64,000 nt of DNA. Origin: Candidatus Dojkabacteria bacterium. GTDB taxonomy: Bacteria; Patescibacteriota; Dojkabacteria; B142; WJKM01. Positions 8 through 45,521 of this stretch are shown in pieces. A program made the translations under genes and the position numbers. The stretch is from the NCBI GenBank assembly GCA_014729085.1, contig WJKM01000006.1, positions 88,016 through 152,015 on the forward strand, written 5' to 3'. The stretch's first letter is position 1. Each line of letters opens with the position of its first letter. Under the pieces are notes generated by a model that was not told where the DNA came from, did not search any database, and saw only the letters and a list, made by a program, of their open reading frames with translations.

Positions 8-2476
8 GTGAGCCAGGAAGATTTGCTTGCCTACCAGCCAGTTATAGATACTCTTCGAGCTAATCCTGACCCTGACAAATATTCCAGTGATATTACGCGT
101 TGGACGGAACTTATGAAAGTTCCTGAGCAGGAATCGATACAGATTACAACTAGAGTTGAAAATGGAAGGTTAGAATTACAAGTACCAGATGGTACATGGG
201 TTGATATCATGGGGGGAGAAAATGATTTATTGCATAGACTTAATTTTCTTCAGGGGCAAGTTGATGCAGATACACCACTGGAGATTGTCGGAGGATGGAC
301 TCTTGACGTTCAAGAGTTGAGGGATTTAGTGCAAGAGGCGGCTCCACAAATTGGGGAGTATTATTTGCAAAATTTGAGAAATATTCAAGCTGAAAGGATG
401 AATATTGATTCACTCGAAGATGTAATTGAAGGTATTAGAGAACCATTAAGATCAAATCATGTTTTGGAGCAGGTCTTCACAGACATGGGAGTTATTGAAC
501 AACTTCAAGTTTTGGAAGCTACTCTAACTGAAAGACGAGACTTAGAGGAGGAGGGTGAAGAAGCAGTTGAAGAAGCAAGAAATGGGAACATAGAGAGATT
601 ATTAGCTTGGTTGAAACGACTGGCAGATGCTAATCTTTCTCGTGACGCAATTGTTGCACGGTTAAGAATGTATGGGATAGATATTAATTTGCTCCCATAT
701 GTTGGTAGGAGAAACTTTATAACTTTAGTTAGAACTATTGGAAACTTATTTCCTTCACTCAGAACTTTTACTGAATCATTGAGAGCAAGGGTAGGGAAAG
801 AAGTAGATGAGGAAATGCAGGAGCAAGATGAAGAAGATCAGGATCTTACGCAATCAAGAAGGTTAACAAGGGTAGATTTAGCTAGTTTAGTAAGAGGTGA
901 AGAGGTAGAGGGGGTGGATTTGTCTCCCCTAGAGCCTGAGGACCCTAATGCAGTAGCAGACTTTTTAAATATCATTAGAGATGAGGGCTTAGAACATTTT
1001 GTTCAGAGAAATCAAATAATTGAAATTCTAAGAAACGCAATTAACCAACGTATTGAACAAGACGATACTGATGAGACAACTAGAGAAGCCTTTGGAAGAA
1101 TTAGAGCAGAATATATTGCAGCCGGAGTCCCGCCTGAATACTTACCAGATTTACCAAGAGAGACTCCTGAAGAACGTGCTGAAAGAATGGAAGATATTGA
1201 GGGGGAGTTCGATGTGCTTCAACCACTTACAGTTTTGGCTTACATAAATGAAGAAATTGAGCAGAGGAATATCCAAGAGAGTACGCGTCAGAGAAGATAT
1301 GATCAAATTACTTTTGCTTTAAAAGAAGCTATCGCTCAAGGTAGGATTGAACTTGAGCCACCAAATGATAGAGTAGACTTGGCGCATGAATATTTGGATG
1401 CTGGAGTCCGTCCTACATCTGTTTATGCTGAAGTACTAATGGGAGAACATTATAAAGAAGCTCATAAGAAAGTAGAAGAATTTGCTCCTATAATGAGAGT
1501 ATTTTATGGTGAGGCTAGGCCTCCAGCAAATCCAGAAACTGTATGGAAAGAAAGGGTTTTACCAGAGTTAAGGAGCCAAAGGCCATTTGAGACTAGTCAG
1601 TATGAAGCATTAATACTAGTCCTTGCCCATGATATGTTCACCGAAGGTGTAAAGTGGTTAAGTTCTGTTGATAGGGTTATAGGAGCGGAAGGAGTAGATG
1701 GTGTTATGAAGGTAACTATGGAGATGATTGAAGAAAAATGTGATGTTTTTGAGGAAGGATCTCTATGGTGGAAGAAAGAGGGAATTAAACCTGTTAAGTA
1801 TGATGATATAAGAGGAGAATATGCAGGAAATCTATATGACGGGCCTCTTGCTGAATATTTAGGTCAATTAGATACGGTTGTAGTTGAAGGCATGATTGAT
1901 GATAATGCTGAAATGATAACATCATATATAAATTTACAAACTGAGTTTTGGATGGCACGACGAGAACAACAGAGAAAACTCGATAGACTCAACCGTCAGG
2001 AGAATTGGGATAGAATTAAATGGATTGCTGGTCTTGGAGGAGGGGCTGCGTTAATTGGGTTTGGAATCGCTGAATTATCCCTTGGTCCCGAGTTAATAGG
2101 TTTATTAGAATCAGCTGGAGAGATACCTTTGGTACCTAAATTAGGTGCACTTAGTCTTTCTACTATGGGTATAAGGTTACTTTGGGAGAGATTAGGAAAA
2201 CCGGAGGAAAGAGATAAAAAGGAGGATGAAAGGAATAAGGCTGAATTACAATTACGGCGAACTGAGAATAAATATGAAAGTGATTTAATGAGAAGGTTGC
2301 GTATGGTGAAAAGATCTGTTAGAAATTCGGTTTTAAACGTGTGTCAAACAGCTCCAGGCTCTAATGCTGCTACAGAGGCTGTTGTTTCTTATAGAAATTC
2401 AATGTCTCAATCTAATGGAGGTTGGCAGACACAGTTTAGAGGTGTTGGTGGACAGTCCTTTGCTTATGGGACATAA
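8..2476 (+). CDS. Large acidic coiled-coil hypothetical protein (822 aa) with a C-terminal hydrophobic/TM segment. The frame is open to the window edge, so it is probably truncated at the 5' end.
   Basis: Long ORF starting with GTG at 8 and no in-frame stop before position 1. Very D/E-rich. Gly-rich hydrophobic stretch 'GLGGGAALIGFGIAELSLGPELIGLL' near residue 680. No recognisable catalytic motif. Confidence 0.55.
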   Translation: MSQEDLLAYQPVIDTLRANPDPDKYSSDITRWTELMKVPEQESIQITTRVENGRLELQVPDGTWVDIMGGENDLLHRLNFLQGQVDADTPLEIVGGWTLDVQELRDLVQEAAPQIGEYYLQNLRNIQAERMNIDSLEDVIEGIREPLRSNHVLEQVFTDMGVIEQLQVLEATLTERRDLEEEGEEAVEEARNGNIERLLAWLKRLADANLSRDAIVARLRMYGIDINLLPYVGRRNFITLVRTIGNLFPSLRTFTESLRARVGKEVDEEMQEQDEEDQDLTQSRRLTRVDLASLVRGEEVEGVDLSPLEPEDPNAVADFLNIIRDEGLEHFVQRNQIIEILRNAINQRIEQDDTDETTREAFGRIRAEYIAAGVPPEYLPDLPRETPEERAERMEDIEGEFDVLQPLTVLAYINEEIEQRNIQESTRQRRYDQITFALKEAIAQGRIELEPPNDRVDLAHEYLDAGVRPTSVYAEVLMGEHYKEAHKKVEEFAPIMRVFYGEARPPANPETVWKERVLPELRSQRPFETSQYEALILVLAHDMFTEGVKWLSSVDRVIGAEGVDGVMKVTMEMIEEKCDVFEEGSLWWKKEGIKPVKYDDIRGEYAGNLYDGPLAEYLGQLDTVVVEGMIDDNAEMITSYINLQTEFWMARREQQRKLDRLNRQENWDRIKWIAGLGGGAALIGFGIAELSLGPELIGLLESAGEIPLVPKLGALSLSTMGIRLLWERLGKPEERDKKEDERNKAELQLRRTENKYESDLMRRLRMVKRSVRNSVLNVCQTAPGSNAATEAVVSYRNSMSQSNGGWQTQFRGVGGQSFAYGT

Positions 2477-3928: not shown

Positions 3929-6900
3929 GATTAAAGCAACTCAAGAGTGTATGGTGGATGTCTTGGTTGAAAAAGCTGAAGAAGGACGTGGTAGCCTGCG
4001 ATAAGCTTCGGGGAGCTGGCAAACAAGCTGTGATCCGAAGATGTCCGAATGGGGGAACCCATCCCGAGTAACATCGGGATACCTTATGTCGAATACATAG
4101 GCATAGAGGGAGAAAGCTGGTGAACTGAAACATCTCACTAACCAGAAGAAAAAATACCGAATGGTATTCCCTTAGTAGTGGCGAGCGAACGGGGATCAGC
4201 CCAAACTCAACAGGTAGGTAGAAGAAGATGCGTCTGCTTTGCGGACAATTTTTCGGATACACCCGTGCAGGGGTGGTTACAGTTGGGTGTTGTAGGAGGT
4301 AAACGTTGCTATACTGCAAAGTAGCAGAACAAGTGATAAATCTTATTTCTAATAGAACACGGTTGGAAAGCCAGACCATAGAGGGTAATAGTCCCGTATA
4401 TGAAAGGAATAAGACTTGTTGGTTTACGATCCTGAGTACCACGATCAATGTAGGATTTTGTGGGAATCAACACGAACCATCGTGTAAGGCTAAACACTTT
4501 TTCAAACCGATAGTGGACAAGTACCGAGAGGGAAAGATGAAAAGTACCCCTGATAGGGGAGTGAAATAGTTCCTAAAACCATATACTTACAAACAGTGGG
4601 AGCCACGTTTACGTGGTGACCGCGTGCCTATTGAAGAATGAGCCTGCGAGTTATTCTATGTTGCTTGCTTAAACTGTTTTGCAGTGTAGGCGCAGCGAAA
4701 GCGAGTCTGAAAGGGCGCGTGTAGCATAGAATAGACCCGAAACCGAGTGATCTACGCATGAGCAGGTTGAATCTCGATGAGAATCGAGAGGAGGACCGAA
4801 CCAGTGAATGTTTCAAAATTCTTGGATGACTTGTGTGTAGCGGTGACACGCCAAACGAACTCGGAAATAGCTGGTTCTCCTCGAAATAACTTTAGGGTTA
4901 GCCTTGGTGTTAAATTCTTACGGGGGTAGAGCACTGATTGGATTGTGGGGGGTATATACCTTACTGCGTTCTCTCAAACTCCGAATACCGTAAGTTTTTT
5001 ACCAGGAGTTAGACTATGGGGGCTAAGCTCCATCAGTCGAAAGGGAAACAGCCCAGATCATCAGCTAAGGTCCTTAAATTTATGCTCAGTGGGAAAGGAT
5101 GTGAAATTTCTTAAACAGCCAGGAGGTTCGCTTAGAGGCAGCTATCCTTTAAAGAGTGCGTAACAGCTCACTGGTCGAGAGATTTTGCGCCGACAATTCA
5201 ACGGGGCTAAAGCATAATACCGAAGCCATGACTTTATGTACCTATGGTACATAAGGGGTAGAGGAGCATTGTGTTCAGCTGTGAAGGTGTACTGTAAAGT
5301 ATGCTGGAGCGTACACAAGAGAGAATGCAGGCATGAGTAGCGTAATCTCGGTGAAAACCCGGGACACCGAATATCTAAGGTTTCCACAGCAATGTCAGTC
5401 ATCTGTGGGTTAGTCGGTCCTAAGTCAAGGCCGAATGGCGTAGACGATGGACAACTGGTTAATATTCCAGTACCGCCTTTAATTCGTTATTAGTTAAGGA
5501 AGGACTAAATGTGCAACTTCCAAGCCTCGACAGGTCGGGGTATAAATAGTAAGCCAGTCTGATTTGGTAAATCCGGTCAGGCGAAATCTCTGCTTCGGCG
5601 GAAAATAGGTGAGCTATGATGTAGAACTGAAGCGCAAGCGGATGTGATTTGGAATAGTATGTTTACAAGAAAATTTTCTATACGAGAATTAAGGGTGACC
5701 GTACCGCAAACCGACACTGGTAGATTGGTAGAGTATACCAAGGTGTACGGATGATCCTTTGTTAAGGAACTCGGCAAATTACTACCGTACGTTCGCAATA
5801 AGGTAGCCCCGGAAAGCGCTTGCGCTTATACGGGGGGCACATAAGAGGCTCGATCGACTGTTTAACAAAAACACAGGTTCCTGCTAACCCGTAAGGGGAT
5901 GTATAGGAGCTGACGCCTGCCCAATGCCAGAAGATTACGGAAGGAGGTTATCTGCCTTTGGCAGAGAAGCTTCCAACTTAAGTCCTGGTGAATGGCGGCT
6001 GTAACTATAACGGTCCTAAGGTAGCGAAGTTCCTCGGCGCTTAATAGGCGTCCCGCATGAAGGGCGTAACGAGTTGGGCACTGTCTTAACAAGGAGTCCG
6101 GCGAAATTGAAGTGGCGGTGAAGATGCCGTCTACCCGCACCTGGACAAAAAGACCCCGGGATCTTTACTGTATCTTGACATTGAAATAAAGGTTAAGTTG
6201 TAGAGCGTAGGAGGGAGACTTTGAAGTCTCAGCGCTAGCTGGGATGGAGTCAAGCATGCAACACCTCCCTTCGTTTCTTTTGTTTCTAACCATCTTCCGT
6301 AAGCCGGAAATGAGACAGTGTCAGGTGGGCAGTTTGACTGGGGCGGTTTCATACTAAAGGATAACGTATGATTGCAAAGGTCGACTCAAGCTGGATGGAA
6401 ATCAGCTGAAGAGCATAATGGTATAAGTCGGCTTTACTGTGAGAGGGACACCTCGAGCAGTCACGAAAGTGGGCCATAGTGACCCTTTGGCAACAAATGG
6501 GAGTGCCATTGTTTAAAGGATAAAAGTTACCCCGGGGATAACAGGCTAGTCTTGCCCAAGCGCTCATAGCGACGGCAAGGTTCGGCACCTCGATGTCGGC
6601 TCGTCGTATCCTGGAGCTGGATAAGGTTCCAAGGGTTGGGCTGTTCGCCCATTAAAACGGCACGTGAGCTGGGTTCAAACCGACGTGAGTCAGGTTGGTC
6701 TCTATCCGGTGTGGGCGTTCGAATTCTGAGGAGATTGCTCCCTAGTACGAGAGGATCGGGAGGAGGTAGCCTCTAGTGCACCAGTTGTTCCACCAGGAGC
6801 ATCGCTGGGTAGCTACGCTGCTATTGTGATAAGCGCTGAAAGCATATAAGCGTGAAGCCAGCTCCAAGATGAGAATTCGTCTGAGACCTGCGGAAGACTA

Positions 6901-6972
6901 CCGCGTTGATAGGCTCTAGGTGTAAGCACAGTAATGTGTTTAGCCAAGGAGTACTAATCGGTCGAAAGCTTT
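3929..6972 (+). rRNA. rrl: 23S ribosomal RNA (large subunit).
   Basis: 5' end 'GGTGGATGTCTTGG...GAAGGACGTGGTAGCCTGCGATAAGCTTCGGGGAGCTG'. Internal universally conserved blocks such as 'GACGGAAAGACCCCGGG', 'GGATAACAGGCT' and 'GAGCTGGGTTCA'. 3' end '...GTACTAATCGGTCGAAAGCTT'. About 3.04 kb. Confidence 0.93.
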
Positions 6973-7106
6973 AGTTTCATTATTTTTCGTGAAATTAGTT
7001 TCATCTTATTATTCTACTATTCGGTTTTTAGAAAACAAATTCATAATTAGTATTTGGTATAATTGTTTACAGTCAATAGAAATTGCAAATTATTTGATTT
7101 TCAATT

Positions 7107-7223
7107 TCTGGTGATTGTAGCGGAGCGGAACCACCTCTTCCCATCCCGAACAGAGAAGTGAAACTCTCCAGCGCCGACGATACTAGAGATTAGGTTCTCT
7201 TGGAAAATAGGTCATCGCCAGAA
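7107..7223 (+). rRNA. rrf: 5S ribosomal RNA.
   Basis: 'CCCATCCCGAACAGAGAAGTGAAAC' 5S loop C/helix III signature. The terminal helix 'tctggtgat...atcgccaga' closes the molecule. Lies about 135 nt downstream of the 23S 3' end. Confidence 0.9.
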
Positions 7224-25254: not shown

Positions 25255-28200
25255 ATGGGTAAAACAAAAAGCAATAATTCAGATGGAGAGCAGTATAATC
25301 ATGAAATGATCGAAGAAGCAATTCGAAAGGACTGGGCTTCAACGGGGCTTTATGATACCCCGGAAGGTGTCACGAAAGAGAATAAGTATTATATACTGCC
25401 TCAACTTCCTTATCCATCCGGAAGCGGTTTACATGTAGGACATGCAGAAGTTTATACGTCTTGTGATATTTTTGCAAGATTTATGCGTATGAAAGGAAAA
25501 AAGGTTTTACAGGTGATGGGTTGGGATGCCTTTGGACTCCCTGCCGAAAATTTTGCAATAAAAACGAATATACACCCAAGAATTAATACAGATAAAGCCA
25601 TCGATAATTTCCGTGAACAGATTAGTAAGATGGGGGTTTCTGTAGATTGGAATAGAGAAGTAGGGAGCCATAATCCAGGTTATTACAAATGGACGCAATG
25701 GTTTTTTAAACTTATGTATGACCAAGGACTTGCATATAGAAAGAACCAGGCGGTAAATTGGTGCGAGAGTTGTAAAACTGTACTTGCAAATGAACAAGTT
25801 GTAGAAGGTGCATGTGAAAGATGCGATACCGAAGTTATACAGAAAAATATGGAGCAGTGGTTTTTGGAAATAACTAAATATGCCGACAGACTTAAAGAAG
25901 ATTTGGATAAGATTGATTGGCCTGAGGAGACAGTAAAAAGACAAAGAGATTGGATAGGAAAGAGTAAAGGTGCAAACGTCAACTTTAAATGCAAAGTTCA
26001 GCATTTAGATTTGTTCTTTTCTACTAGTAACAAAGCAAAAGTCAAAAGGCTTAAAAAGATTCTAGATAAAACTGACTTAAAATACACTCTTTATACTGCA
26101 GATGATTTAGATATAGAATCCTTAAATATTAAAGAAGATGGAGATTTGGAAAGCAATGCCAAGAAAAAAGCATTAGCATATTTCGATAAAGTCAATATGC
26201 CTGTAGTTGCAGTAGACACAGGTTTATTTATAGAGGATGAGCATATAGATCCGGTTACAGTAAAAAGAAATGCTTTGGAGGGAAAGAAGGAAACAGAACT
26301 TTCACAAGAAGAAATTGGTAAGCTTATGAATTCTTATTATAAAAGCATTGCAGCTAAACATGGTGGAGAAGTAGAAGCCTATTTCAAGGATGTCTTTGCA
26401 TTTGTTTTTCCGGGTGGTAGAGTTCAAATAGCAGAGATAAGAAGGCCAATAGTCATTACTGATAAACCCAAGGGAGAACTTGATATTTATATGCCTATTA
26501 GAAATCTTTATAAAACCAAGGCAACTGGCAAATATGTTATTGAATATGGAGACAAAGGTTTCGACTTAGAGTTTGAGGAATACTTTAAAGTATTTAAGGA
26601 CGTATTTTCCTATAATTTGGAAGTATTTACGACACGGCCAGATACTTTGTACGGTGCTACTTTTATGGTAATTGCGCCGGAGCATGAATTAATTGAGAGG
26701 TTAGGCAGTACAATCCAAAATTATAAAGAGGTCAAAAAATATGTTGAACAGGCGAGATTAAAATCTGAGTTGGAAAGGCAGCAGCAAGAAAAAGAAAAGA
26801 CGGGGGTTAGAATTAGGGGAATTTATGCGATTAATCCAGTCACAAAAGAAAGAATACCAATCTTCGTAGCTGATTATGTACTTATTACTTATGGTACAGG
26901 TTCAATTATGGGAGTCCCAGCCCATGATGAAAGGGATTTCGAATTTGCATTAAAATATGACTTGTCCATAATTCCTGTAATTGATTTTGAAAAGGATGAA
27001 TATATTTGTTTTATAAAAAAAGAATGGAGGAAGAACTACCAAGATTTTTTAAAAGAAGCGGAAAAACTTGGAACAAAATTTTTAAAAAAAGGAAAGAATA
27101 AATCATTGTTATCTATTAAAAGTAATGATTTAAAAAATTTTATTAAATTAGTGAGAGATACAAGCCAAGATGGAAGTTGGTTAGATTTGGTTGGCAAGGA
27201 ATATATTGTAGTTTGGGAAGATGGTGAAGTTGAATATGTTAAAAGATTTATTAATGAAAAAGATGTTTTTGACAGACAAAAAGATACAGAGCCTGATGTT
27301 CGTGAGTTCAATAATGTTTGGGAAATGCTTTTTAATTCTACGGAATATAAGGATTATGTCTGTTATAGCGGACGCGGAAAAATTATTAATTCGGAAGATT
27401 GGAATGGATGGAAATACCCAGATGATTTTGATAAGGTACTTGATTATATAGAAGAGAAAGGTATAGGAAAAAGAAATACGATTTTTAAACTTCGAGATTG
27501 GTCTGTTTCAAGACAACGTTTTTGGGGAGCCCCTATTCCCATGCTAATAAAGGAATTAAAAAATGAAGATTCGGTAGAACTTAATGAAGTTTATAAAAGC
27601 AGTCCTGAAAAGGTAGTCCAAATGCATGCGTGGGATAGTGATCCTCAGGCTCACTTCCATTCATGGGTTGAAAAGAAGCTAGAGAAAAAAGGTATCAAAT
27701 GTGTAACACCTCAGCTTCCAAAACCGGTTAAACCAAATTTCAACGAATGGGTTCAAACGGGTGCAGATTTATTATATGAAAACTCAGAGAACTCAATTTT
27801 AGTTGGTAGAAGCTTAAGTGTTTGGAGTGCTTTGAAGGTTGCTGAAAAGAAAAAATTAAGAAAGTTAATTTTATTGTGTCCAACATTGAATATCGACAGT
27901 TGGTACAAACGTATTGAAGATGTTGTGGATAAAAAAGATGTTGCAGAATCAATTATTAATTTCGTAAAGAACAATAAAATAAATTTTGAAGCGGTTGAGA
28001 GAAATGTAGGAGAAGTTGTATTTTTCTTGTCTACGGATGATCCATATATTCCCCTAAGCGAAACAGAAGAATACATCCAAAAGATTTTTCCATGTGCTCG
28101 CATTCGAAGGTTCAGAGAATCGGGACACTTTGATGCTGAAAGTGGCTATAATACTTTCCCCGAGTTAATTGAGGAGATTGAGAAGAGTGTAAGATTAGAC

Positions 28201-29283
28201 TTAAAGAAGGTTAAACAGGAAGATTTGCCTGTCCTTCTACCTGATGATGTTGATTTCAAACCAACGGGCCAATCACCATTAACTTATTCGGATTCCTTCC
28301 AAGAAGATGTAGAAAAGATTTATGGAAAGGGATGGAGAAGAGAAGTTGATACTCTAGATACCTTTATGTGTTCGAGTTGGTATTATTATAGATATTTAGA
28401 TCCAAATAATGATGAAGCTTTTGCCTCAAAAGAATCACTTAAGAAATGGATGCCAGTTGATTTTTATATAGGTGGCCCCGAACATGTTAACGGACATTTG
28501 TTGTATTCACGATTTTTTACTAAGGTGCTTTATGATGCAGGATATATAGATTTTGATGAGCCTTTTAAATTTCATAGACATCAGGGGATGATTTTAGGTG
28601 AGGATAACAGAAAAATGAGCAAGCGATGGGGAAATGTGGTAAATCCAACAGATGTTGTTAATAAATATGGTGCAGACACCTTGAGAGTGTATGAAATGTT
28701 TATGGGACCTCTTGAACAGACTAAGGCTTGGAGTGATTCTGCGGTAAGAGGAGTGAGACGTTTTTTGCAGAGAGTTTACGATTATTCGCAAAAAGTTATT
28801 GATAATGAGTCAAACTCAAATGAAGAAGAAATTAAGGTCAGAATCGATCAGTTAATTAAAAAAATAAGTGAAGATACTAAAGAATTAAAGTTTAATACAG
28901 CAATAGCAGAGTTTATGAAATTCATGAATTTTGCAGAAGATAATAAGGTTGACATAGGAACCTGGAAGAAATTTATGCTCGTTCTTGCTCCTTATGCACC
29001 TTTTATTACAGAATACATTTGGAAGAAGTTGCTTGGTAATAAAGACTCTATACACTTAGAAGAATGGCCTCAATACGATGAGAAGCTCTTATCTTCCCAA
29101 AAGATTACAATTGCTGTACAGGTTATGGGTAAAACAAGAGGAGAAATATTAATTGATCCAGAAGAAAAGAAGGAGGACGCAGTTAATATTGCAGAAAACC
29201 ACGAAAACGTATCGAAGTATCTTAAGGACGGATATAAAAAAGCAATATATGTGAAAGGAAAAATTATTAATTTTGTTATCTAG
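25255..29283 (+). CDS. leuS: Leucyl-tRNA synthetase (1342 aa) carrying three large in-frame domain insertions.
   Basis: HIGH motif 'PYPSGSGLHVGHAEVYT'. KMSKS motif 'KMSKRWGN'. 'DWIGKSKGANVNF' and 'TTRPDTLYG' (CP1 editing) are separated by about 210 extra residues. 'GTGSIMGVPAHDERDFEFALKYDLSIIPVI' and 'RDWSVSRQRFWGAPIP' are both present. Confidence 0.92.
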   Translation: MGKTKSNNSDGEQYNHEMIEEAIRKDWASTGLYDTPEGVTKENKYYILPQLPYPSGSGLHVGHAEVYTSCDIFARFMRMKGKKVLQVMGWDAFGLPAENFAIKTNIHPRINTDKAIDNFREQISKMGVSVDWNREVGSHNPGYYKWTQWFFKLMYDQGLAYRKNQAVNWCESCKTVLANEQVVEGACERCDTEVIQKNMEQWFLEITKYADRLKEDLDKIDWPEETVKRQRDWIGKSKGANVNFKCKVQHLDLFFSTSNKAKVKRLKKILDKTDLKYTLYTADDLDIESLNIKEDGDLESNAKKKALAYFDKVNMPVVAVDTGLFIEDEHIDPVTVKRNALEGKKETELSQEEIGKLMNSYYKSIAAKHGGEVEAYFKDVFAFVFPGGRVQIAEIRRPIVITDKPKGELDIYMPIRNLYKTKATGKYVIEYGDKGFDLEFEEYFKVFKDVFSYNLEVFTTRPDTLYGATFMVIAPEHELIERLGSTIQNYKEVKKYVEQARLKSELERQQQEKEKTGVRIRGIYAINPVTKERIPIFVADYVLITYGTGSIMGVPAHDERDFEFALKYDLSIIPVIDFEKDEYICFIKKEWRKNYQDFLKEAEKLGTKFLKKGKNKSLLSIKSNDLKNFIKLVRDTSQDGSWLDLVGKEYIVVWEDGEVEYVKRFINEKDVFDRQKDTEPDVREFNNVWEMLFNSTEYKDYVCYSGRGKIINSEDWNGWKYPDDFDKVLDYIEEKGIGKRNTIFKLRDWSVSRQRFWGAPIPMLIKELKNEDSVELNEVYKSSPEKVVQMHAWDSDPQAHFHSWVEKKLEKKGIKCVTPQLPKPVKPNFNEWVQTGADLLYENSENSILVGRSLSVWSALKVAEKKKLRKLILLCPTLNIDSWYKRIEDVVDKKDVAESIINFVKNNKINFEAVERNVGEVVFFLSTDDPYIPLSETEEYIQKIFPCARIRRFRESGHFDAESGYNTFPELIEEIEKSVRLDLKKVKQEDLPVLLPDDVDFKPTGQSPLTYSDSFQEDVEKIYGKGWRREVDTLDTFMCSSWYYYRYLDPNNDEAFASKESLKKWMPVDFYIGGPEHVNGHLLYSRFFTKVLYDAGYIDFDEPFKFHRHQGMILGEDNRKMSKRWGNVVNPTDVVNKYGADTLRVYEMFMGPLEQTKAWSDSAVRGVRRFLQRVYDYSQKVIDNESNSNEEEIKVRIDQLIKKISEDTKELKFNTAIAEFMKFMNFAEDNKVDIGTWKKFMLVLAPYAPFITEYIWKKLLGNKDSIHLEEWPQYDEKLLSSQKITIAVQVMGKTRGEILIDPEEKKEDAVNIAENHENVSKYLKDGYKKAIYVKGKIINFVI

Positions 29284-29542
29284 AAAATTATTGCTTTATT
29301 TATTACTTAATTTTCCAATGAAGGAATTAAAATCCGGTATTTATAAACATTATAAAGGTAATAAATATTTGGTTTTAGGAAAAGCTAAGCATAGCGAAAC
29401 ACTTGAAGACCTTGTAGTATATATTAGCTTGTATGATAATGAAATGAGTAAGATTTGGGTTAGACCAGTTGAGATGTTTCTAGAGGAAGTTGAATATGAT
29501 GGAAGGAAGATGCCAAGGTTTAAGTATTTAGACGAGAATTAA
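29273..29542 (+). CDS. DUF1653 family protein. The true start is probably the M of 'MKELKSGIYKHYKG' at 29318.
   Basis: 'GIYKHYKGNKYLVLGKAKHSETLEDLVVYISLYD...WVRPVEMF' matches the DUF1653 signature. Confidence 0.7.
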   Translation: MLSRKLLLYLLLNFPMKELKSGIYKHYKGNKYLVLGKAKHSETLEDLVVYISLYDNEMSKIWVRPVEMFLEEVEYDGRKMPRFKYLDEN

Positions 29543-38353: not shown

Positions 38354-39892
38354 TTATATATTTTCTTCTGTAAGTTTTAGATTATATAAATTGTTTTTAC
38401 CTTCAGATGTTTCTGTTTCTTTTGAATCCTGAATTAACATGAGTAAAGCTTTATTGTTTGATAGCATATAAAAACTTTCATCTACAATTCCATCATTAGT
38501 AAATAAATCAATTAGATTTTCTCCATTTCGATCCATAATTGTGATAGTTTTTTGGCCACTTTCGATACTTTTAGCTAAGAGAACGATGTGAGTTGAAATA
38601 GTGTTCCATTGAATTGAATGTATCTCAGGATTGTAATTTTCTAATATTAGATTGTGTTTAGAGATAATTTCATTTGTTACTTTATTTTCCTTGATTGTAT
38701 AAGAGAAGATTTTATTATCCTTCTGATAAAGTAGAGAGAGCCCATCTTTTGAAAAATCAAGAATATTAATATTTTGTCCTATTCTATCAATGAAGCTGTA
38801 TTGCGTATTTAGGTAATAATACTCATCTTTTGTTTTGTAAACAATATATTTCCCATTATTTCTATCTATATCTAGATATTCAATTTCCTTTGGCAGGCTT
38901 TGATTCTCAAGTGAAATTTTTTTCTTGGTTTCATCTTTGTAATAATACAAATTATTATCTTTATTTGATTTGAAAACTAAGGTATCTCCATTAATTGCGT
39001 ATATTGGTTCATGATCTGGATGGTAAGTGATTATGATATTTTTTTGATTACTTAGAACAAGCTCAGTTAGAAGTGTTTTGTCTTTTACTATAAGAGAAGT
39101 TGAACCTCTAAACCATTTGAACTGTTCTGGAGTAAAACCTAACATTCTTTCAATTGAAAGCAGATCTTCTGGTTTCGGATTTGGATTGGGGCTTTCTGTT
39201 TCAAAAATATAATGGGGGGTTTTATCAGATTTAAATAAGATTTTTTTATTATCAGGAGAGGGGAGAATTTTATATGAACCAGAATTAATAGCATCCTCTA
39301 TTTCTGGGATTATGTTAATAATCTTAACGGGTTGACTTTCAATCGTATTGAATATGGTAGAGATATCAGTTAATTGGAGTTGGAAAACACCATTTTCTAC
39401 ACCATTGGGAGATTTGCTGACAACGTAATAAACAAAATCGCCATATTCAGCAAAAAAAACTTTCTCTATATTTGTTGCTGGTAATCTTAGTTCTAAATTT
39501 GGATTTTCAGGAAATAGGAAAGGATTGATATCTGTAATCATCCCTCCTTCTATATTAAGGATGCTTTCCCATTCATTGTATCCCTCCATAGTTAAGTTCA
39601 ATTTATGTTCGCCTGGTTCGATGTTAGCTATTATATTTTCCTTTATTTCTTTAGGTTCACCATCTATTTTTGCTGTTAATTTCTCTTTATAGTCATCGTT
39701 ATTAATTCTGATAGACCCCGTTTGTATTATGATTGGTTCTCGAGTAGCGGAGGGGTTTTCATTATTTCCTAGAATACTGCTTAGGTTGATCTTCCTGCTG
39801 TTAGCGGATAACAAAGCCCACAAAAGCATTACGATAAATGCAATAGAGGAAGAAAATATCAATAATTTTTTTTGTGTATTAAATTTTTTCAT
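38354..39892 (-). CDS. Membrane-anchored PEGA-domain protein with a beta-propeller/TolB-like C-terminal region.
   Basis: N-terminal TM helix. PEGA-like 'IEPGEHKLNLTMEGYNEWESILNIEGGMITDI'. C-terminal region is repetitive and beta-rich. Confidence 0.55.
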   Translation of the reverse strand: MKKFNTQKKLLIFSSSIAFIVMLLWALLSANSRKINLSSILGNNENPSATREPIIIQTGSIRINNDDYKEKLTAKIDGEPKEIKENIIANIEPGEHKLNLTMEGYNEWESILNIEGGMITDINPFLFPENPNLELRLPATNIEKVFFAEYGDFVYYVVSKSPNGVENGVFQLQLTDISTIFNTIESQPVKIINIIPEIEDAINSGSYKILPSPDNKKILFKSDKTPHYIFETESPNPNPKPEDLLSIERMLGFTPEQFKWFRGSTSLIVKDKTLLTELVLSNQKNIIITYHPDHEPIYAINGDTLVFKSNKDNNLYYYKDETKKKISLENQSLPKEIEYLDIDRNNGKYIVYKTKDEYYYLNTQYSFIDRIGQNINILDFSKDGLSLLYQKDNKIFSYTIKENKVTNEIISKHNLILENYNPEIHSIQWNTISTHIVLLAKSIESGQKTITIMDRNGENLIDLFTNDGIVDESFYMLSNNKALLMLIQDSKETETSEGKNNLYNLKLTEENI

Positions 39893-43073: not shown

Positions 43074-45521
43074 TTATAAAGAGTAGTTTGCTTTTAGTAC
43101 TTTTTTTACATCTTTGATTGAAATAGGGGTGGAGGAGTCTGATGGTTTAGTAAATTCCATTAACTCATTTGGGTTTGCCTTCCCATTCCATAAATAGCCT
43201 AGGGATTTTGGGTTATTAACAATATATTGCCCAGTTTTTATGGCCCATTTCAAATAAAGATCTTTGGTAAAAGCTCCACTACTAGATGTATCTGATATAC
43301 CTCTCTTGAATCTTACTGTGTAGTTCCAAGCTTTGTTTTCGTCTTGGATGTATTTATATGCTTTGTTGTAAACAGCTTTAAAATCCGAAATCAAGGAGGT
43401 GTTCATTAATATAATAAGTAAGCTTGGGATTTTAAAGACTTTGTCTTTTTTTCTTGAGTGGCCTACTATTGTAGCTAGCCCTTCTTCTGTAATTATATAA
43501 CGTGGGGTACCTATTTTCCAAATTAATTCCTTCTTTTTCTTCCCATTATGCAGCCGTAATAAGTGTGTGAGTATTTCATGTCCTATTGCATTGTTTAGTT
43601 GATCTTCACTCCTACCACGGTTTTCTGGTAGTTTTATTCTTCCAGAACTTTTTCCTATAGACATTTTAGTTCTCTTATCGCTAAATTTAATAGGATAATC
43701 GAGTTTGTATTTGTCGAGAGCTTCCTGCATTCTTTTTCCTACTTCTCGGGCAGGGATCTCTGGATTCTTATCTATTGTTATTTTATGATTCTTAAGGATT
43801 TTTCTAGCAAGTCTCCTTATTTTACGGTTAGGTTGCCCAAAAAGTTCAATTGATCTTTGAGTAAAGGTATGTGGGTCATGTCCAATTGTTTCCATTAAAT
43901 ATACCATTTTTTTATATTCTTTAATTTTGTTTCTATAGATTCGTCCTATACTGTCAAATGGAGGATTTAAAAGTTCTAGTTTGTCAAGTATTTTATCTGG
44001 ATCAAATTTTAAAGGTTTGTATTCAAATTGTGGATTATAATCACAATTTTTCTTGAAAAACTTTTCTTTTTCTTCTTTAACATTCCGAGGTCTTAATGCA
44101 GGAATAATGCTTAATATTTTATTGAATTCTTCGAATGCTTCATCCAATTTTTTAATTTTAGTTGGTTTGAGCAATGCATAAATATTTTCTTTTAATTTAC
44201 TTTCCTCTGGACCCTCGATTTTTTTAACGTCAATTATGAAATTCCCTAGATCTTTTCTTCCTATTGACAGATTATAACCTTTGATTTGATCATTTATTAT
44301 CCTGCATTCACAATCAATTGTTTGATTGCCTAATTTTATTTTTATAAATACTATCTCGTACTCACCTTCCTCTACCTTTTCTTCCAGAATGCCAAGTTTC
44401 ATAGCTATTTGGGAACTAATGATCGAGGTTCTTCGGCTTGTATCAACCAAACTCATTGTTTGAACTTTTTTATCTTTGAAAATTATAGTCGCGGGCATTA
44501 TATTACTAATAATTTCTTTTCCAGAGATCCTTTCTATTTTTTCTTCAACTTCACCACCAAACAGATCTTTTCCTATTCTTATACCATGATCAGAATTTTT
44601 AACTTCCAGACCTTTAGCTTTATACAGTCTCCAAGCAAGGCCTCTTCTGTTTACTATTTGAATAGATAATCCGGGCCTTGCATTAAGTTCTACAATGACA
44701 GGTCCTTTTTCATTATCTATAAGGAAGTCAACAGCTCCAAAATTAAGTCCGGAAGCGTCAATAGCTTTAGAGGCGTATTTTAAGATTTCGTTCCAATGGG
44801 GAATTTCTAGTCCCTGGAATGGTAGTTTTGTTCCAGGTACAAATTCAATCGGATATCCTTTCCCCCCACTTCCTTTTCCATAAGTAGAAGTAGTAGTAAT
44901 GCCGCTTGCAAGGTCTATACCAGTACCAACAGCGCCTTTTATCATATTAGCCTTTCCTTTTGATTCTTTTGTAGGAAATCGAACATAGGCCATTATAGGA
45001 ATTTTATTGTATGTTACAACTCTTATATCGGGAGTTCCTTTATAAGTGTAGTTTTTTAGGTCATCATGTGTTCGTATTCTTTCCTCAAAAAAAGCTTGAT
45101 CCGGTTCGTTTCTAAGGGAATATTTTCCATCAAGTATTTCCAGGGCCATGCTTTTAATTTGATATGCAGATACTCTGCTACCATCGGATTTAATCCAATT
45201 TCCGTTTTTGTCTCTATTATAAAAAATTTCGATACCCGCTCCTTGTGCCCCCTGTACTGGTTTCATGACAAAACTTGCAGGTAATTTGTTCCAGTTGAAT
45301 GCTTCAAATTCTGAATAATCCTTTATGACTCCCAGTAATTCTGGTGAGGGAATATTTTCTGAAGCCAATATTTTTTTTGTAAGTAATTTATCGTCAGCAA
45401 TTTTCCTGCCTCTGGTATTACCTTCTTTTTGTATGAATAGTAGATTTCTCGCATTTTGTCCGAGAACCTTATTTCTATTCCTCAGTATTTGAAAGATTGT
45501 CATCTTCGTTTTTAGGATCAA
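43074..45521 (-). CDS. Tri-domain fusion: RimK-type ATP-grasp ligase, retropepsin-like (PF05618-type) protease, and MATCAP/DUF1704-like HExxH metallocarboxypeptidase.
   Basis: N-terminal domain: 'NARNLLFI...ADDKLLTKKIL', 'SFVMKPVQGAQGAGIEIF' and 'GAVDFLIDNEKGPVIVELNARPGLSIQ'. Middle domain: 'SLVDTSRRTSII...SIGRKDLGNFIIDV'. C-terminal domain: 'AIGHEILTHLL' (HExxH) and 'EEGLATIVGH' (QEGLA-type motif). Confidence 0.7.
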   Translation of the reverse strand: MILKTKMTIFQILRNRNKVLGQNARNLLFIQKEGNTRGRKIADDKLLTKKILASENIPSPELLGVIKDYSEFEAFNWNKLPASFVMKPVQGAQGAGIEIFYNRDKNGNWIKSDGSRVSAYQIKSMALEILDGKYSLRNEPDQAFFEERIRTHDDLKNYTYKGTPDIRVVTYNKIPIMAYVRFPTKESKGKANMIKGAVGTGIDLASGITTTSTYGKGSGGKGYPIEFVPGTKLPFQGLEIPHWNEILKYASKAIDASGLNFGAVDFLIDNEKGPVIVELNARPGLSIQIVNRRGLAWRLYKAKGLEVKNSDHGIRIGKDLFGGEVEEKIERISGKEIISNIMPATIIFKDKKVQTMSLVDTSRRTSIISSQIAMKLGILEEKVEEGEYEIVFIKIKLGNQTIDCECRIINDQIKGYNLSIGRKDLGNFIIDVKKIEGPEESKLKENIYALLKPTKIKKLDEAFEEFNKILSIIPALRPRNVKEEKEKFFKKNCDYNPQFEYKPLKFDPDKILDKLELLNPPFDSIGRIYRNKIKEYKKMVYLMETIGHDPHTFTQRSIELFGQPNRKIRRLARKILKNHKITIDKNPEIPAREVGKRMQEALDKYKLDYPIKFSDKRTKMSIGKSSGRIKLPENRGRSEDQLNNAIGHEILTHLLRLHNGKKKKELIWKIGTPRYIITEEGLATIVGHSRKKDKVFKIPSLLIILMNTSLISDFKAVYNKAYKYIQDENKAWNYTVRFKRGISDTSSSGAFTKDLYLKWAIKTGQYIVNNPKSLGYLWNGKANPNELMEFTKPSDSSTPISIKDVKKVLKANYSL

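What the first reader, a model, noticed from the sequence alone, without database searches (positions are those of the whole stretch)
25255..29283. Leucyl-tRNA synthetase enlarged to 1342 aa by three in-frame domain insertions
The canonical LeuS landmarks are all present and collinear with E. coli LeuS: HVGH, 'DWIGKS', 'TTRPDT' CP1 editing, 'GTGSIMGVPAHDERD', 'RDWSVSRQRFWGAPIP' and KMSKR. Three spacings are greatly expanded relative to E. coli:
- About 210 aa between 'DWIGKSKGANVNF' and 'TTRPDT'.
- About 110 extra aa after 'SIIPVI'.
- About 210 aa between 'WGAPIPML' and 'LPVLLPDDV'.

No intein signatures were seen (no Cys/Ser at the insert starts, and no insert-terminal His-Asn followed by Cys/Ser/Thr), so these are true domain insertions. 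The total is about 480 extra residues in an essential enzyme of a small genome.
Basis: partly seen in the sequence, partly recalled or inferred. Interest (0 to 1): 0.85.

Follow-up and report, generated by a model that had tools for sequence, protein, structure and literature searches.

The report
LeuRS carrying three inserted accessory domains
This candidate-phyla-radiation bacterium makes an intact leucyl-tRNA synthetase with three complete extra domains spliced into its surface loops: a Ham1-type nucleotide pyrophosphatase, an undescribed ferredoxin-like domain and an RBBP9-type serine hydrolase, all drawn from a pool of portable modules that related bacteria insert at the same three sites.

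Summary
Window 25255..29283 (+) is one uninterrupted 1342-aa ORF. It is collinear with T. thermophilus LeuRS in five blocks and passes NCBI's curated LeuRS threshold (865 bits against 548).

The three expansions are folded domains, not linkers or inteins:
- **I1 (aa 247-453):** a complete Ham1/RdgB-like fold with its N, K, E, K, D phosphate/Mg residues conserved. Free-standing 205-214-aa homologues exist.
- **I2 (aa 578-703):** an undescribed ferredoxin-like alpha/beta domain (AF2 pLDDT 92) with no Pfam entry or solved relative. The family also occurs free-standing and inside IleRS, MetRS, ProRS, PheRS-beta and an RluA-type pseudouridine synthase.
- **I3 (aa 766-984):** an RBBP9/YdeN-type serine hydrolase with the Ser853-Asp929-His958 triad.

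I1 and I2 sit inside the CP1 editing domain, so they are nested insertions.

Among the 120 closest LeuRS (mostly named as candidate-phyla-radiation bacteria where named), the same three sites recur: A in 5, B in 44, C in 66. They hold interchangeable cargo: NUDIX, Ham1, ASCH, methyltransferase, HAD, the I2 family and the hydrolase. No relative carries all three.

Most likely this is a working LeuRS serving as a scaffold for autonomous accessory domains. Coupling to aminoacylation chemistry is possible but untested. I found no paper describing it.

The parts
25255..29283 (+). leuS: single 1342-aa ORF (stop codon 29281-29283) encoding bacterial-type leucyl-tRNA synthetase with three inserted domains
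   Evidence: ORF listing. NCBIfam TIGR00396 leuS_bact 865.3 bits against a cut-off of 548.4. 1h3n E=3.6e-179 in five collinear blocks. Identical protein P0001 in NCBI.
25255..25992 (+). aa 1-246: first half of the Rossmann catalytic domain with HVGH (aa 60-63, nt 25432-25443), the Cys-rich zinc-finger-like region, and the strand leading into CP1
   Evidence: Aligns to T. thermophilus LeuRS 2-236. Pfam tRNA-synt_1 over aa 24-235.
25993..26613 (+). Insert 1 (site A), aa 247-453: complete but divergent Ham1/RdgB/ITPase-like domain, nested at the N-terminal edge of CP1, 5 residues before the strand that carries TTRPDT
   Evidence: Pfam PF01725 at 44.9 bits against 22.5. Family profile against 4bnq: E=1.2e-14, positions 3-202 against 2-187. 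Invariant N259, K262, E294, K305, D321, R338 across 7 family members. Free-standing homologues P0121-P0124, up to 44% identity over 95%. Well below the RdgB equivalog cut-offs (43 against 234). pLDDT about 85-94 for the N-terminal half and below 50 for aa 408-418 and 428-434.
26614..26985 (+). aa 454-577: core of the CP1 editing domain with the T-rich motif TTRPDT (aa 459-464, nt 26629-26646) and GTGSIMGVPAHDERD
   Evidence: Pfam PF13603 at E=2.5e-50. Aligns to T. thermophilus 242-363.
26986..27363 (+). Insert 2 (site B), aa 578-703: undescribed ferredoxin-like alpha/beta domain with a C-terminal helical extension, nested in a variable loop of CP1
27364..27549 (+). aa 704-765: C-terminal part of CP1 and return to the catalytic domain (RDWSVSRQRFWGAPIPML)
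   Evidence: Aligns to T. thermophilus 377-437.
27550..28206 (+). Insert 3 (site C), aa 766-984: RBBP9/YdeN-type alpha/beta serine hydrolase replacing an ~11-aa hairpin after WGAPIPM. Triad: Ser853 (nt 27811-27813), Asp929 (nt 28039-28041), His958 (nt 28126-28128)
   Evidence: Pfam PF06821 at 48.7 bits against 22. RBBP9 9fcr/2qs9 E~4e-11 and YdeN 1uxo E=5.7e-9. Triad aligned to RBBP9 S75/D138/H165; Ser and His kept in 65 of 66 related LeuRS inserts. pLDDT 92-98.
28207..29280 (+). aa 985-1342: second half of the catalytic domain with KMSKR (aa 1120-1124, nt 28612-28626), the anticodon-binding domain and the C-terminal tRNA-binding domain. The leucine-specific domain is absent
   Evidence: Aligns to T. 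thermophilus 446-580 and 637-876, with nothing matching 580-637. Pfam Anticodon_1 over aa 1193-1306.

Best explanation
**Shown.** The gene encodes a complete bacterial-type LeuRS with its aminoacylation motifs, CP1 editing motifs, anticodon-binding domain and C-terminal domain intact. Three surface loops each host a complete, independently folding domain. A Ham1/RdgB-like nucleotide pyrophosphatase fold sits at the N-terminal edge of CP1. An undescribed ferredoxin-like domain sits in a variable loop of CP1. An RBBP9/YdeN-type serine hydrolase sits in the hairpin after WGxPIP. The Ham1-like and hydrolase domains keep their catalytic residues. All three insert types have free-standing relatives: I1 and I2 in the metagenome searches, I3 in the solved proteins RBBP9 and YdeN. 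The same three sites in related LeuRS hold interchangeable cargo.

**Inferred, most likely.** The protein is a multi-enzyme chimera. LeuRS charges tRNA-Leu as usual and also serves as a constitutively expressed scaffold for small accessory domains that act largely on their own.
- Ham1-like: hydrolysis of a nucleoside polyphosphate.
- RBBP9-like: hydrolysis of an ester or amide.
- Ferredoxin-like: probably a non-catalytic binding module, possibly for RNA, given that its hosts are almost all tRNA/rRNA enzymes.

The modules come from a pool of portable domains that these bacteria repeatedly insert into tolerant loops of translation enzymes. Once inserted, they are inherited with the host gene.
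For: **LeuRS intact.**
- TIGR00396 at 865 bits against a cut-off of 548.
- Five collinear blocks with 1h3n.
- HVGH, KMSKR, TTRPDT and the HD-containing editing motif are all present.
- AF2 of aa 1-1200: mean pLDDT 85.5, pTM 0.80.

**Domains are autonomous.**
- Pfam hits above the gathering cut-offs for I1 and I3.
- Full-length alignments to 4bnq and RBBP9.
- I2 alone folds at pLDDT 92.
- Free-standing homologues of I1 (P0121-P0124) and of I2 (P0136, P0139, P0142 and others).

**Under selection.**
- I3-type inserts differ on average by 68% between LeuRS, against 36% for the core, yet Ser and His persist in 65 of 66.
- Insert and core distances correlate (Mantel r=0.25, 0 of 2000 permutations reach it).
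- The nearest I3 neighbour, P0002, is also the nearest core neighbour.
- The I1 family keeps N, K, E, K, D invariant.
- The NUDIX box is intact in 29 of 44 site-B inserts of relatives.

**Modularity argues for independent action.**
- Three recurrent sites hold different families.
- NUDIX and the I2 family swap positions: P0130 has NUDIX at A and the I2 type at B, while P0145 has the reverse.
- The I2 family and NUDIX also sit in ProRS. The I2 family also sits in PheRS-beta, MetRS, IleRS and an RluA-type enzyme.
- Insert-bearing and insert-free LeuRS are interleaved at similar core distances.
Against: - No activity was measured for any part.
- The Ham1-like domain scores far below the RdgB equivalog cut-offs. 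It lacks the canonical C-terminal base-recognition motifs, with DIYMPIRNLY where 4bnq has GFGYDPIFY. Its substrate is therefore unknown.
- The RBBP9 residues that anchor the substrate alpha-amine (E108, S76, Y99) are not conserved. Specificity cannot be transferred.
- The I2 copy in this protein is a divergent member: GSWLD instead of GFWNE, and 11-24% identity to other members.
- The cargo is heavily biased towards nucleotide and ester hydrolases placed around the editing domain. That could equally mean functional coupling to aminoacylation chemistry.
- pTM 0.80 hints at a defined rather than floppy arrangement.
- I could not check whether this genome lacks free-standing copies of these enzymes.
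- I could not confirm that this is its only LeuRS. The 41 related genome loci each come from a different assembly, but that search was pattern-limited.
Confidence: 0.6

Rival explanations
1. **Coupled quality control or clean-up.** The inserted hydrolases act on products of the synthetase itself. The RBBP9-like domain would hydrolyse aminoacyl esters or anhydrides, such as mischarged tRNA-Leu or a non-cognate aminoacyl-adenylate. The Ham1-like domain, and NUDIX in relatives, would destroy adenylated by-products such as Ap4A. The ferredoxin-like domain would help hold tRNA.
For: - RBBP9 forms acyl-enzyme adducts with single hydrophobic amino acids (Leu/Ile, Phe, Tyr, Trp) and requires a free alpha-amine. 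[quoted passage not shown] That is the chemistry of deacylating an aminoacyl ester.
- aaRS are a main source of Ap4A, and Nudix hydrolases degrade it (PMC10148737).
- NUDIX and Ham1 are both nucleoside-polyphosphate pyrophosphatases, and they never co-occur in the 120 LeuRS examined.
- Two of the three sites lie inside the editing domain.
- Hosts of the I2 family are almost all tRNA/rRNA enzymes.
- pTM 0.80 for aa 1-1200.
Against: - NUDIX and the I2 family exchange sites A and B. Precise geometry relative to the LeuRS active sites therefore seems unnecessary.
- Cargo at site B also includes a methyltransferase and a HAD phosphatase, and site A includes an ASCH domain. These do not fit one proofreading logic.
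- RBBP9's alpha-amine anchors are not conserved.
- CP1 editing motifs are intact, so no editing deficit needs compensating.
- Many close relatives manage with no insert at all.
Confidence: 0.25
2. **Neutral or selfish passengers.** The inserts are tolerated in-frame insertions, remnants of mobile DNA or random gene capture, with no present function.
For: - Patchy distribution among close relatives.
- Recurrent 'hot spots' in loops that tolerate length variation.
- One free-standing I2-family gene lies next to a GIY-YIG gene (L045).
- A PheRS-beta carries a DUF559 endonuclease-like domain beside an I2-family domain.
Against: - Catalytic Ser and His are kept in 65 of 66 inserts despite about 68% mean divergence.
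- The I1 family has invariant catalytic residues.
- The NUDIX box is intact in relatives.
- There are no intein or endonuclease motifs in this gene.
- There are no border repeats.
- Inserts co-diverge with the host.
Confidence: 0.08
3. **Specialised paralogue.** This is not the housekeeping LeuRS but a second copy, for example for resistance or a non-translational role, alongside a normal ~800-aa copy elsewhere in the genome.
For: Only 64 kb of the genome is visible. Enlarged or divergent aaRS paralogues are known elsewhere; NCBIfam has exception models such as MupA/MupB and ileS_w_GNAT.
Against: - All catalytic and editing motifs are intact, and the equivalog score is well above the cut-off.
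- Core divergence from relatives is ordinary, 0.32-0.40.
- The 41 related genome loci all come from different assemblies, with no genome yielding two.
- Genomes of this group are small; a complete Dojkabacteria genome is 862 kb.
Confidence: 0.05
4. **Assembly chimera or frameshift artefact** joining unrelated genes.
For: No relative among about 5.8 billion clusters has all three inserts together. The P0001 cluster has one member on one contig.
Against: - Each junction is in frame and restores LeuRS sequence precisely where it left off.
- Each insert type is seen at the same site in independent assemblies.
- Composition is even.
- Three independent mis-joins that all preserve frame and collinearity are not credible.
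Confidence: 0.02

Closest known systems
Bacterial-type leucyl-tRNA synthetase (T. thermophilus 1H3N/2V0C, E. coli 4AQ7 family; NCBIfam TIGR00396)
   Same: Same order of catalytic domain, CP1 editing domain, anticodon-binding domain and C-terminal domain. HIGH and KMSKS-type motifs, the T-rich editing motif and the conserved Asp are present. Scores above the curated equivalog cut-off.
   Different: 533 aa longer than insert-free relatives of its own lineage. It has three whole foreign domains in loops, two of them inside CP1. It lacks the leucine-specific domain.
LeuRS of related candidate-phyla-radiation bacteria with one or two inserts (e.g. P0012/P0034 Ham1 + hydrolase; P0013-P0024 NUDIX + hydrolase; P0002-P0011 hydrolase only; JGI name 'leucyl-tRNA synthetase/predicted alpha/beta hydrolase family esterase')
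   Same: Same three insertion sites and the same domain families.
   Different: None has all three sites filled. This protein is the longest of the 120 best hits, and it alone among them combines Ham1 at A with the I2 family at B and the hydrolase at C. These relatives exist only as database entries. I found no paper on them.
aaRS with extra enzyme or binding domains: NCBIfam NF040702 'isoleucine--tRNA ligase, N-acetyltransferase domain-containing'; terminal fusions in CPR aaRS (TyrRS and LysRS with the PheRS-beta B2 domain, TrpRS with small proteins; PMC5370408); eukaryotic GST/WHEP appendages (PMC11580382)
   Same: An aminoacyl-tRNA synthetase that has acquired additional domains unrelated to its core reaction.
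   Different: The precedents I read about in the papers are terminal appendages. For NF040702 I know only its name, not where the extra domain sits. Here there are three internal insertions of hydrolase-type and novel domains, two of them nested in the editing domain.
RBBP9 / YdeN serine hydrolases (PF06821; 2QS9, 7OEX, 1UXO)
   Same: Same fold family, full-length alignment, Ser-Asp-His triad in register.
   Different: Embedded in LeuRS rather than free-standing. The nucleophile elbow is G-R-S-L-S. RBBP9's substrate alpha-amine anchors E108/S76/Y99 are replaced by A897/L854/T877.
RdgB/Ham1/ITPase non-canonical purine NTP pyrophosphatases (PF01725; 4BNQ, 1K7K, 1VP2)
   Same: Full-length profile alignment. 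The N-x-x-K, E, K and D-x-G motifs of the phosphate/Mg site are conserved.
   Different: Divergent subfamily: 43 bits against equivalog cut-offs of 145-270. It has an extra helical segment and no FGYDP-type motif. It is inserted in CP1.
Lineage-specific insertion domains in other large housekeeping enzymes (e.g. RNA polymerase beta/beta' insertions, PMC11515920; general survey PMC13114784)
   Same: Whole domains inserted into surface loops of an essential enzyme, sometimes nested.
   Different: In the survey's dataset the LeuRS editing domain (PF13603) was insertion-exclusive, with zero events as a host. Here it hosts two domains.

Membership tests
Bacterial-type leucyl-tRNA synthetase (TIGR00396) | Score above the curated equivalog cut-off | tested here: met
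   865.3 bits against 548.4
Bacterial-type leucyl-tRNA synthetase (TIGR00396) | Class I signature motifs HIGH and KMSKS | tested here: met
   HVGH at aa 60-63 and KMSKR at aa 1120-1124; H60, G62, H63, M1121, S1122, K1123 and R1124 are invariant among 66 aligned LeuRS
Bacterial-type leucyl-tRNA synthetase (TIGR00396) | CP1 editing domain in the bacterial position, with the T-rich motif and conserved Asp | tested here: met
   PF13603 at E=1.4e-54. TTRPDT aligned to T. thermophilus 247-252; GTGSIMGVPAHDERD aligned to GTGAIMAVPAHDQRD
Bacterial-type leucyl-tRNA synthetase (TIGR00396) | Anticodon-binding helical domain and C-terminal tRNA-binding domain | tested here: met
   PF08264 over aa 1193-1306. 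Aligns to T. thermophilus 637-876 through to the last residue
Bacterial-type leucyl-tRNA synthetase (TIGR00396) | Leucine-specific insertion domain (present in E. coli and T. thermophilus; not universal) | tested here: not met
   Nothing aligns to T. thermophilus 580-637; query aa 1116 joins directly to 1120. It is also absent from the ~800-aa relatives
Bacterial-type leucyl-tRNA synthetase (TIGR00396) | Leucylation of tRNA-Leu and hydrolytic editing | not testable with these tools
   Needs enzyme assays
Ham1/RdgB/ITPase (PF01725) | Pfam gathering score and full-length fold | tested here: met
   44.9 bits against 22.5. Family profile against 4bnq at E=1.2e-14 over positions 3-202 against 2-187
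Ham1/RdgB/ITPase (PF01725) | Phosphate/Mg-binding residues (N-x-x-K, E, K, D-x-G) | tested here: met
   N259, K262, E294, K305 and D321 invariant in 7 family members and aligned to NNQGK...E...K...DDSG of 4bnq
Ham1/RdgB/ITPase (PF01725) | Equivalog-level identity with RdgB/XTP-dITP diphosphatase, including the C-terminal base-recognition motifs | tested here: not met
   Best NCBIfam score 43.4 against a cut-off of 234. The C-terminal half is divergent, with DIYMPIRNLY where 4bnq has GFGYDPIFY
RBBP9/YdeN serine hydrolase (PF06821) | Pfam gathering score and full-length alpha/beta hydrolase fold | tested here: met
   48.7 bits against 22. RBBP9 residues 15-174 of 186 aligned at E=3.6e-11. pLDDT 92-98
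RBBP9/YdeN serine hydrolase (PF06821) | Ser-Asp-His catalytic triad | tested here: met
   S853, D929 and H958 align to RBBP9 S75, D138 and H165. Ser and His are kept in 65 of 66 related inserts. Asp is aligned in 38 of 66, with the others shifted in register
RBBP9/YdeN serine hydrolase (PF06821) | RBBP9's alpha-amine-anchoring residues (E108, S76, Y99), which underlie its aminopeptidase specificity | tested here: not met
   A897, L854 and T877 at the aligned positions. The role of these residues in RBBP9 is from PMC8866121
Intein | Hint domain; N-terminal Cys/Ser; C-terminal His-Asn followed by Cys/Ser/Thr | tested here: not met
   No Hint/intein Pfam hit in the protein or the inserts. The C-terminal junctions read ...SYN|LEV...YVC|YSG and ...LDLKKVK|QED. 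Each insert is fully accounted for by another globular fold
Known anti-phage defence proteins (PADLOC-DB) | Match to any defence-system model | tested here: not met
   No hit for the three inserts or for the free-standing I2 homologue P0136
Insert-2 family (undescribed) | Shared sequence profile (S-[YF]-L-M-G ... GFWNE..G....FIFK ... N.FY) and a beta-alpha-beta-beta-alpha-beta core with helical extension | tested here: met
   The profile built from LeuRS inserts finds 92 representatives at E<=1e-3 and 26 at E<=1e-10. This copy is a divergent member at 11-24% identity (GSWLD). It is linked to P0090 at E=1e-4 in a 120-sequence search and by shared site. Fold

The most novel reading that the evidence does not exclude
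aaRS of candidate-phyla-radiation bacteria would be hubs of a previously unrecognised system of portable accessory domains. These are inserted at fixed hot spots around the editing domain and are functionally coupled to aminoacylation.
- An RBBP9-type serine hydrolase would act as an extra aminoacyl-ester or aminoacyl-adenylate hydrolase.
- NUDIX or Ham1 modules would destroy adenylated by-products such as Ap4A at their source.
- A new ferredoxin-like family, specific to tRNA/rRNA enzymes (LeuRS, IleRS, MetRS, ProRS, PheRS-beta, RluA), would act as an auxiliary RNA-binding module.

That would be a new layer of translational quality control, evolved in organisms with minimal genomes.
Probability: 0.2. 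Interest if true: 0.85.

Novelty: new variant of a known kind. Interest (0 to 1): 0.62.

Why it matters
aaRS are among the most conserved enzymes, and candidate-phyla-radiation bacteria are known for losing genes. It is unexpected to find their LeuRS grown by up to two thirds through insertion of whole enzymes.

- It shows that the CP1 editing domain can itself host domains. A recent survey found no such case.
- It defines three insertion-tolerant sites in LeuRS that protein engineers could use.
- It uncovers an undescribed domain family tied to tRNA/rRNA enzymes.
- It offers a simple test of whether nucleotide- and ester-hydrolases fused to a synthetase act on its by-products (Ap4A, misactivated adenylates, mischarged tRNA) or merely ride on an essential gene.

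Either answer says something about how minimal genomes organise housekeeping functions.

Tried and rejected
- **Inteins.** Rejected: no Hint hit and no junction residues.
- **Global hmmalign to a core LeuRS model.** It merged inserts 2 and 3 and misplaced the 60-aa core piece between them. I replaced it with local domain hits and pairwise alignment.
- **Word-index homology search with insert 2 alone.** It found nothing. Only the exhaustive profile search found the family.
- **Insert 2 as a duplicate of the LeuRS C-terminal tRNA-binding domain.** Weak phmmer hits suggested it. hhalign gave probability 0.45%, so I rejected it.
- **Defence-system membership.** No PADLOC hits.
- **Target-site duplications or border repeats.** None. 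The 16-nt repeat D7 simply encodes GKIIN twice.
- **L033 as an even longer LeuRS.** This is an artefact of joined hits: the locus holds a MetRS and unrelated genes.
- **Regex count of the catalytic Asp.** Too crude. I rely on the alignment to RBBP9 instead.
- **Context of free-standing homologues.** Short contigs, little information. P0121 lies among ftsA, ftsZ and the trigger factor gene. P0136 lies upstream of methyltransferase genes. P0142 lies beside a GIY-YIG gene.
- **Other large genes of the window.** No comparable insertions were seen among the ten largest.
- **Literature.** Nine full-text searches (a tenth call, 60, failed on term syntax) found no description of these LeuRS insertions, plus one search for RBBP9 function.

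Full report
**1. Observation**

Window 25255..29283 (+) is a single 1342-aa ORF. The identical protein is in NCBI as 'class I tRNA ligase family protein [Candidatus Dojkabacteria bacterium]', on a 152-kb contig (P0001). The window also holds 23S and 5S rRNA and four tRNAs, and ordinary housekeeping neighbours: a ClpB/ClpC-type AAA+ chaperone (Clp_N + two AAA domains), a RadA-like protein, Rho, an S1-domain protein and a ComEC-like competence protein.

Against solved structures the best match is T. thermophilus LeuRS (1h3n, E=3.6e-179), in five collinear blocks:

| Query (aa) | T. thermophilus (aa) |
|---|---|
| 12-246 | 2-236 |
| 454-577 | 242-363 |
| 704-764 | 377-437 |
| 985-1116 | 446-580 |
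| 1120-1342 | 637-876 |

The leucine-specific domain (T. thermophilus 580-637) is missing. The whole protein scores 865 bits on NCBI's leuS_bact equivalog model, whose cut-off is 548. HVGH, KMSKR, TTRPDT and the GTGSIMGVPAHDERD editing motif are all present.

Pairwise alignment to the nearest insert-free relatives (P0037 and P0039, 809 and 807 aa) sets the inserts at aa 247-453, 578-703 and 766-984. Each replaces a loop of roughly 8-15 residues.

Composition is even across the gene. There are no + strand terminator-like sites inside it and no repeats at the borders.

**2. What the inserts are**

*Insert 1.* It hits Pfam Ham1p_like at 44.9 bits against a cut-off of 22.5.
- A profile of this insert, the two other LeuRS-embedded copies and four free-standing proteins aligns end to end with a solved non-canonical purine NTP pyrophosphatase (4bnq, E=1.2e-14, positions 3-202 against 2-187).
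- N259, K262, E294, K305, D321 and R338 are invariant in that family. The first five align with the N-x-x-K, E, K and D-x-G motifs of the phosphate/Mg site.
- The C-terminal half is divergent, and the domain scores far below the RdgB equivalog cut-offs.
- Free-standing homologues of 205-214 aa exist, up to 44% identical over 95% of the insert. One lies among ftsA, ftsZ and the trigger factor gene on a 1.49-Mb contig.

*Insert 3.* It hits Pfam Ser_hydrolase at 48.7 bits against 22, RBBP9 at E=3.6e-11 and B. subtilis YdeN at E=5.7e-9.
- Ser853, Asp929 and His958 align with the RBBP9 triad S75, D138 and H165.
- It is the most confidently modelled part of the protein, at pLDDT 92-98.

*Insert 2.* It has no hit in Pfam, NCBIfam or PADLOC.
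- Modelled with an alignment of 35 family members, it folds at pLDDT 92.2 and pTM 0.84. The fold is a beta-alpha-beta-beta-alpha-beta core followed by two further short strands and three C-terminal helices.
- Foldseek finds nothing at E<=1e-3 in the PDB or among viral models.

No insert has intein features (junction sequences).

**3. Where they sit**

In insert-free P0037 the Pfam editing-domain model spans aa 219-410. Site A maps after its residues ~237-247 and site B after ~372-381, so both lie inside CP1. Site C maps after residues 443-447, in the catalytic domain after WGAPIPM.

Inserts 1 and 2 are therefore domains nested in a domain that is itself inserted in the Rossmann fold. A 2026 survey of domain insertions reported the LeuRS editing domain as insertion-exclusive, with zero events as a host in its dataset (PMC13114784). 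This protein is a counter-example.

An AF2 model of aa 1-1200 has mean pLDDT 85.5 and pTM 0.80. The low-confidence stretches are:
- the first 11 residues of the protein;
- parts of insert 1 (aa 408-418, 428-434);
- part of insert 2 (aa 663-687).

The alignment was thin over the two insert stretches. The tool returns no coordinates, so I could not measure how the inserted active sites are oriented.

**4. Relatives**

The 120 best LeuRS hits range from 787 to 1342 aa, and this is the longest. Those that carry a taxon name are mostly assigned to Dojkabacteria, Magasanikbacteria, Roizmanbacteria and other Patescibacteria groups. Some related genome loci are labelled 'uncultured Gammaproteobacteria' or come from other phyla.

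A core model built from the ~800-aa forms shows three recurrent insertion sites:

| Site | LeuRS with an insert (of 120) | Cargo |
|---|---|---|
| A | 5 | Ham1 in three, NUDIX in one, ASCH in one |
| B | 44 | Mostly NUDIX (box intact in 29); one methyltransferase, one HAD, seven confirmed members of the insert-2 family and a few other unassigned inserts |
| C | 66 | RBBP9/YdeN-type or related alpha/beta hydrolases |

- Insert-bearing and insert-free enzymes are interleaved at similar core distances. A complete 862-kb Dojkabacteria genome has a ~790-aa LeuRS (L014).
- Site-C inserts differ by 68% on average, against 36% for the core, yet they keep the nucleophile Ser and the His in 65 of 66.
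- Insert and core distances correlate (Mantel r=0.25; none of 2000 permutations reaches it). The nearest insert neighbour of this protein, P0002, is also its nearest core neighbour. So the hydrolase has mostly been inherited with its host and is under selection.

**5. The insert-2 family**

A profile of seven LeuRS site-B inserts, searched against 1.84 billion representatives, finds 92 proteins at E<=1e-3 and 26 at E<=1e-10. They fall into three groups:
- LeuRS, mostly with the domain at site B, but at site A in P0145, P0149, P0165, P0183 and P0197.
- Free-standing proteins of 115-140 aa.
- Other hosts:
  - IleRS (P0168), MetRS (P0134) and PheRS-beta (P0162, P0170);
  - ProRS together with NUDIX (P0199);
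  - an RluA-family pseudouridine synthase (P0194);
  - an NYN-domain protein, and fusions to DMP19-like and DUF5680 domains.

P0130 has NUDIX at A and this domain at B. P0145 has the reverse.

Only hydrophobic positions are near-invariant across the family, which suggests a binding module rather than an enzyme. The copy in this protein is a divergent member.

A suspected relationship to the LeuRS C-terminal domain was rejected (hhalign probability 0.45%).

**6. How it most likely works**

*Shown:* an intact LeuRS plus three autonomous domains, two of them with catalytic residues under selection.

*Inferred:* the domains act largely independently, and LeuRS serves as an essential, always-expressed scaffold. 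The reasons are:
- the modules have free-standing forms;
- they swap sites;
- they are replaced at the same site by unrelated families;
- they occur in other synthetases;
- many close relatives do without them.

The main rival is functional coupling, for these reasons:
- RBBP9 forms acyl-enzymes with single hydrophobic amino acids including Leu/Ile and needs a free alpha-amine (PMC8866121). That is the chemistry of hydrolysing an aminoacyl ester.
- aaRS make Ap4A, which Nudix enzymes degrade (PMC10148737).
- NUDIX and Ham1 never co-occur in these LeuRS.
- Two of the sites are in the editing domain.

Against coupling:
- RBBP9's alpha-amine anchors are not conserved here.
- The cargo at these sites includes a methyltransferase, a HAD and an ASCH domain.
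- The exact position does not seem to matter.

I put the scaffold reading at about 0.6 and the coupled reading at about 0.25.

**7. Novelty**

Extra domains on aaRS are a known theme. CP1 itself is one. Others are eukaryotic appendages, NCBI's 'ileS_w_GNAT' model and terminal fusions in CPR TyrRS, LysRS and TrpRS (PMC5370408). One- and two-insert LeuRS sit unremarked in databases, and JGI even auto-names some 'leucyl-tRNA synthetase/predicted alpha/beta hydrolase family esterase'.

Eight of the nine successful full-text searches looked for these LeuRS insertions, the three hot spots or the insert-2 family, and none found a description. That library lacks most subscription journals, so prior description cannot be excluded.

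I rate this a new variant of a known kind: of real interest to people who work on synthetases and on minimal genomes, and directly testable.

Noticed in passing
window 3930-6977 and 7107-7223 (+): 23S and 5S rRNA genes, with no 16S called anywhere in the window. The 3.9 kb upstream holds an 822-aa protein ORF (8..2476), so the 16S appears unlinked. The 23S match spans 3048 nt against a 2925-position model, about 120 nt extra.
   Followed up: no
window 43074-45521 (-): 815-aa ORF fusing a sugar-transfer-associated ATP-grasp domain (PF14397, E=7e-55) to a MATCAP-type carboxypeptidase domain (PF08014, E=1e-35). This is an unusual ligase + peptidase pairing.
   Followed up: no
window 8-2476 (+) and 38354-39892 (-): Two large ORFs (822 and 512 aa) with no Pfam family at E<=1e-4.
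   Followed up: no
window 29273-29542 (+): 89-aa ORF with a TTG start that overlaps the last 11 nt of leuS. It may be translationally coupled to it. It was not scanned against any family library.
   Followed up: no
P0162 (PheRS-beta, 853 aa) and P0199 (ProRS, 775 aa): Other synthetases carry the same kind of cargo. P0162 has a DUF559 (Vsr-like endonuclease) domain at aa 201-307 and an insert-2-family domain at aa 392-513. P0199 has an insert-2-family domain at aa 137-217 and NUDIX at aa 304-429.
   Followed up: partly
L045 56-382 and 442-849: A free-standing insert-2-family gene (P0142) lies 60 nt downstream of a 108-aa GIY-YIG gene on a 958-nt contig. This is a possible hint of mobility, but the contig is too short to judge.
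   Followed up: no
L042 79-495, 719-1288, 1366-1989: A free-standing insert-2-family gene (P0136) is followed by two methyltransferase genes. The first hits the same Pfam families (Methyltransf_23/25/11) as the site-B insert of LeuRS P0026.
   Followed up: no
L044 6001-6645: The locus of the free-standing Ham1-like homologue P0121 is flagged 'translates_to_query: no' under table 11. That may mean the source genome (a 1.49-Mb contig) uses another genetic code or that the start was called differently.
   Followed up: no
L001, L006, L007 and other loci: Several genomes holding close relatives of this LeuRS, including insert-bearing ones, are titled 'uncultured Gammaproteobacteria bacterium'. That sits oddly with a LeuRS type otherwise named in Patescibacteria. 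The labels may be placeholder names.
   Followed up: no
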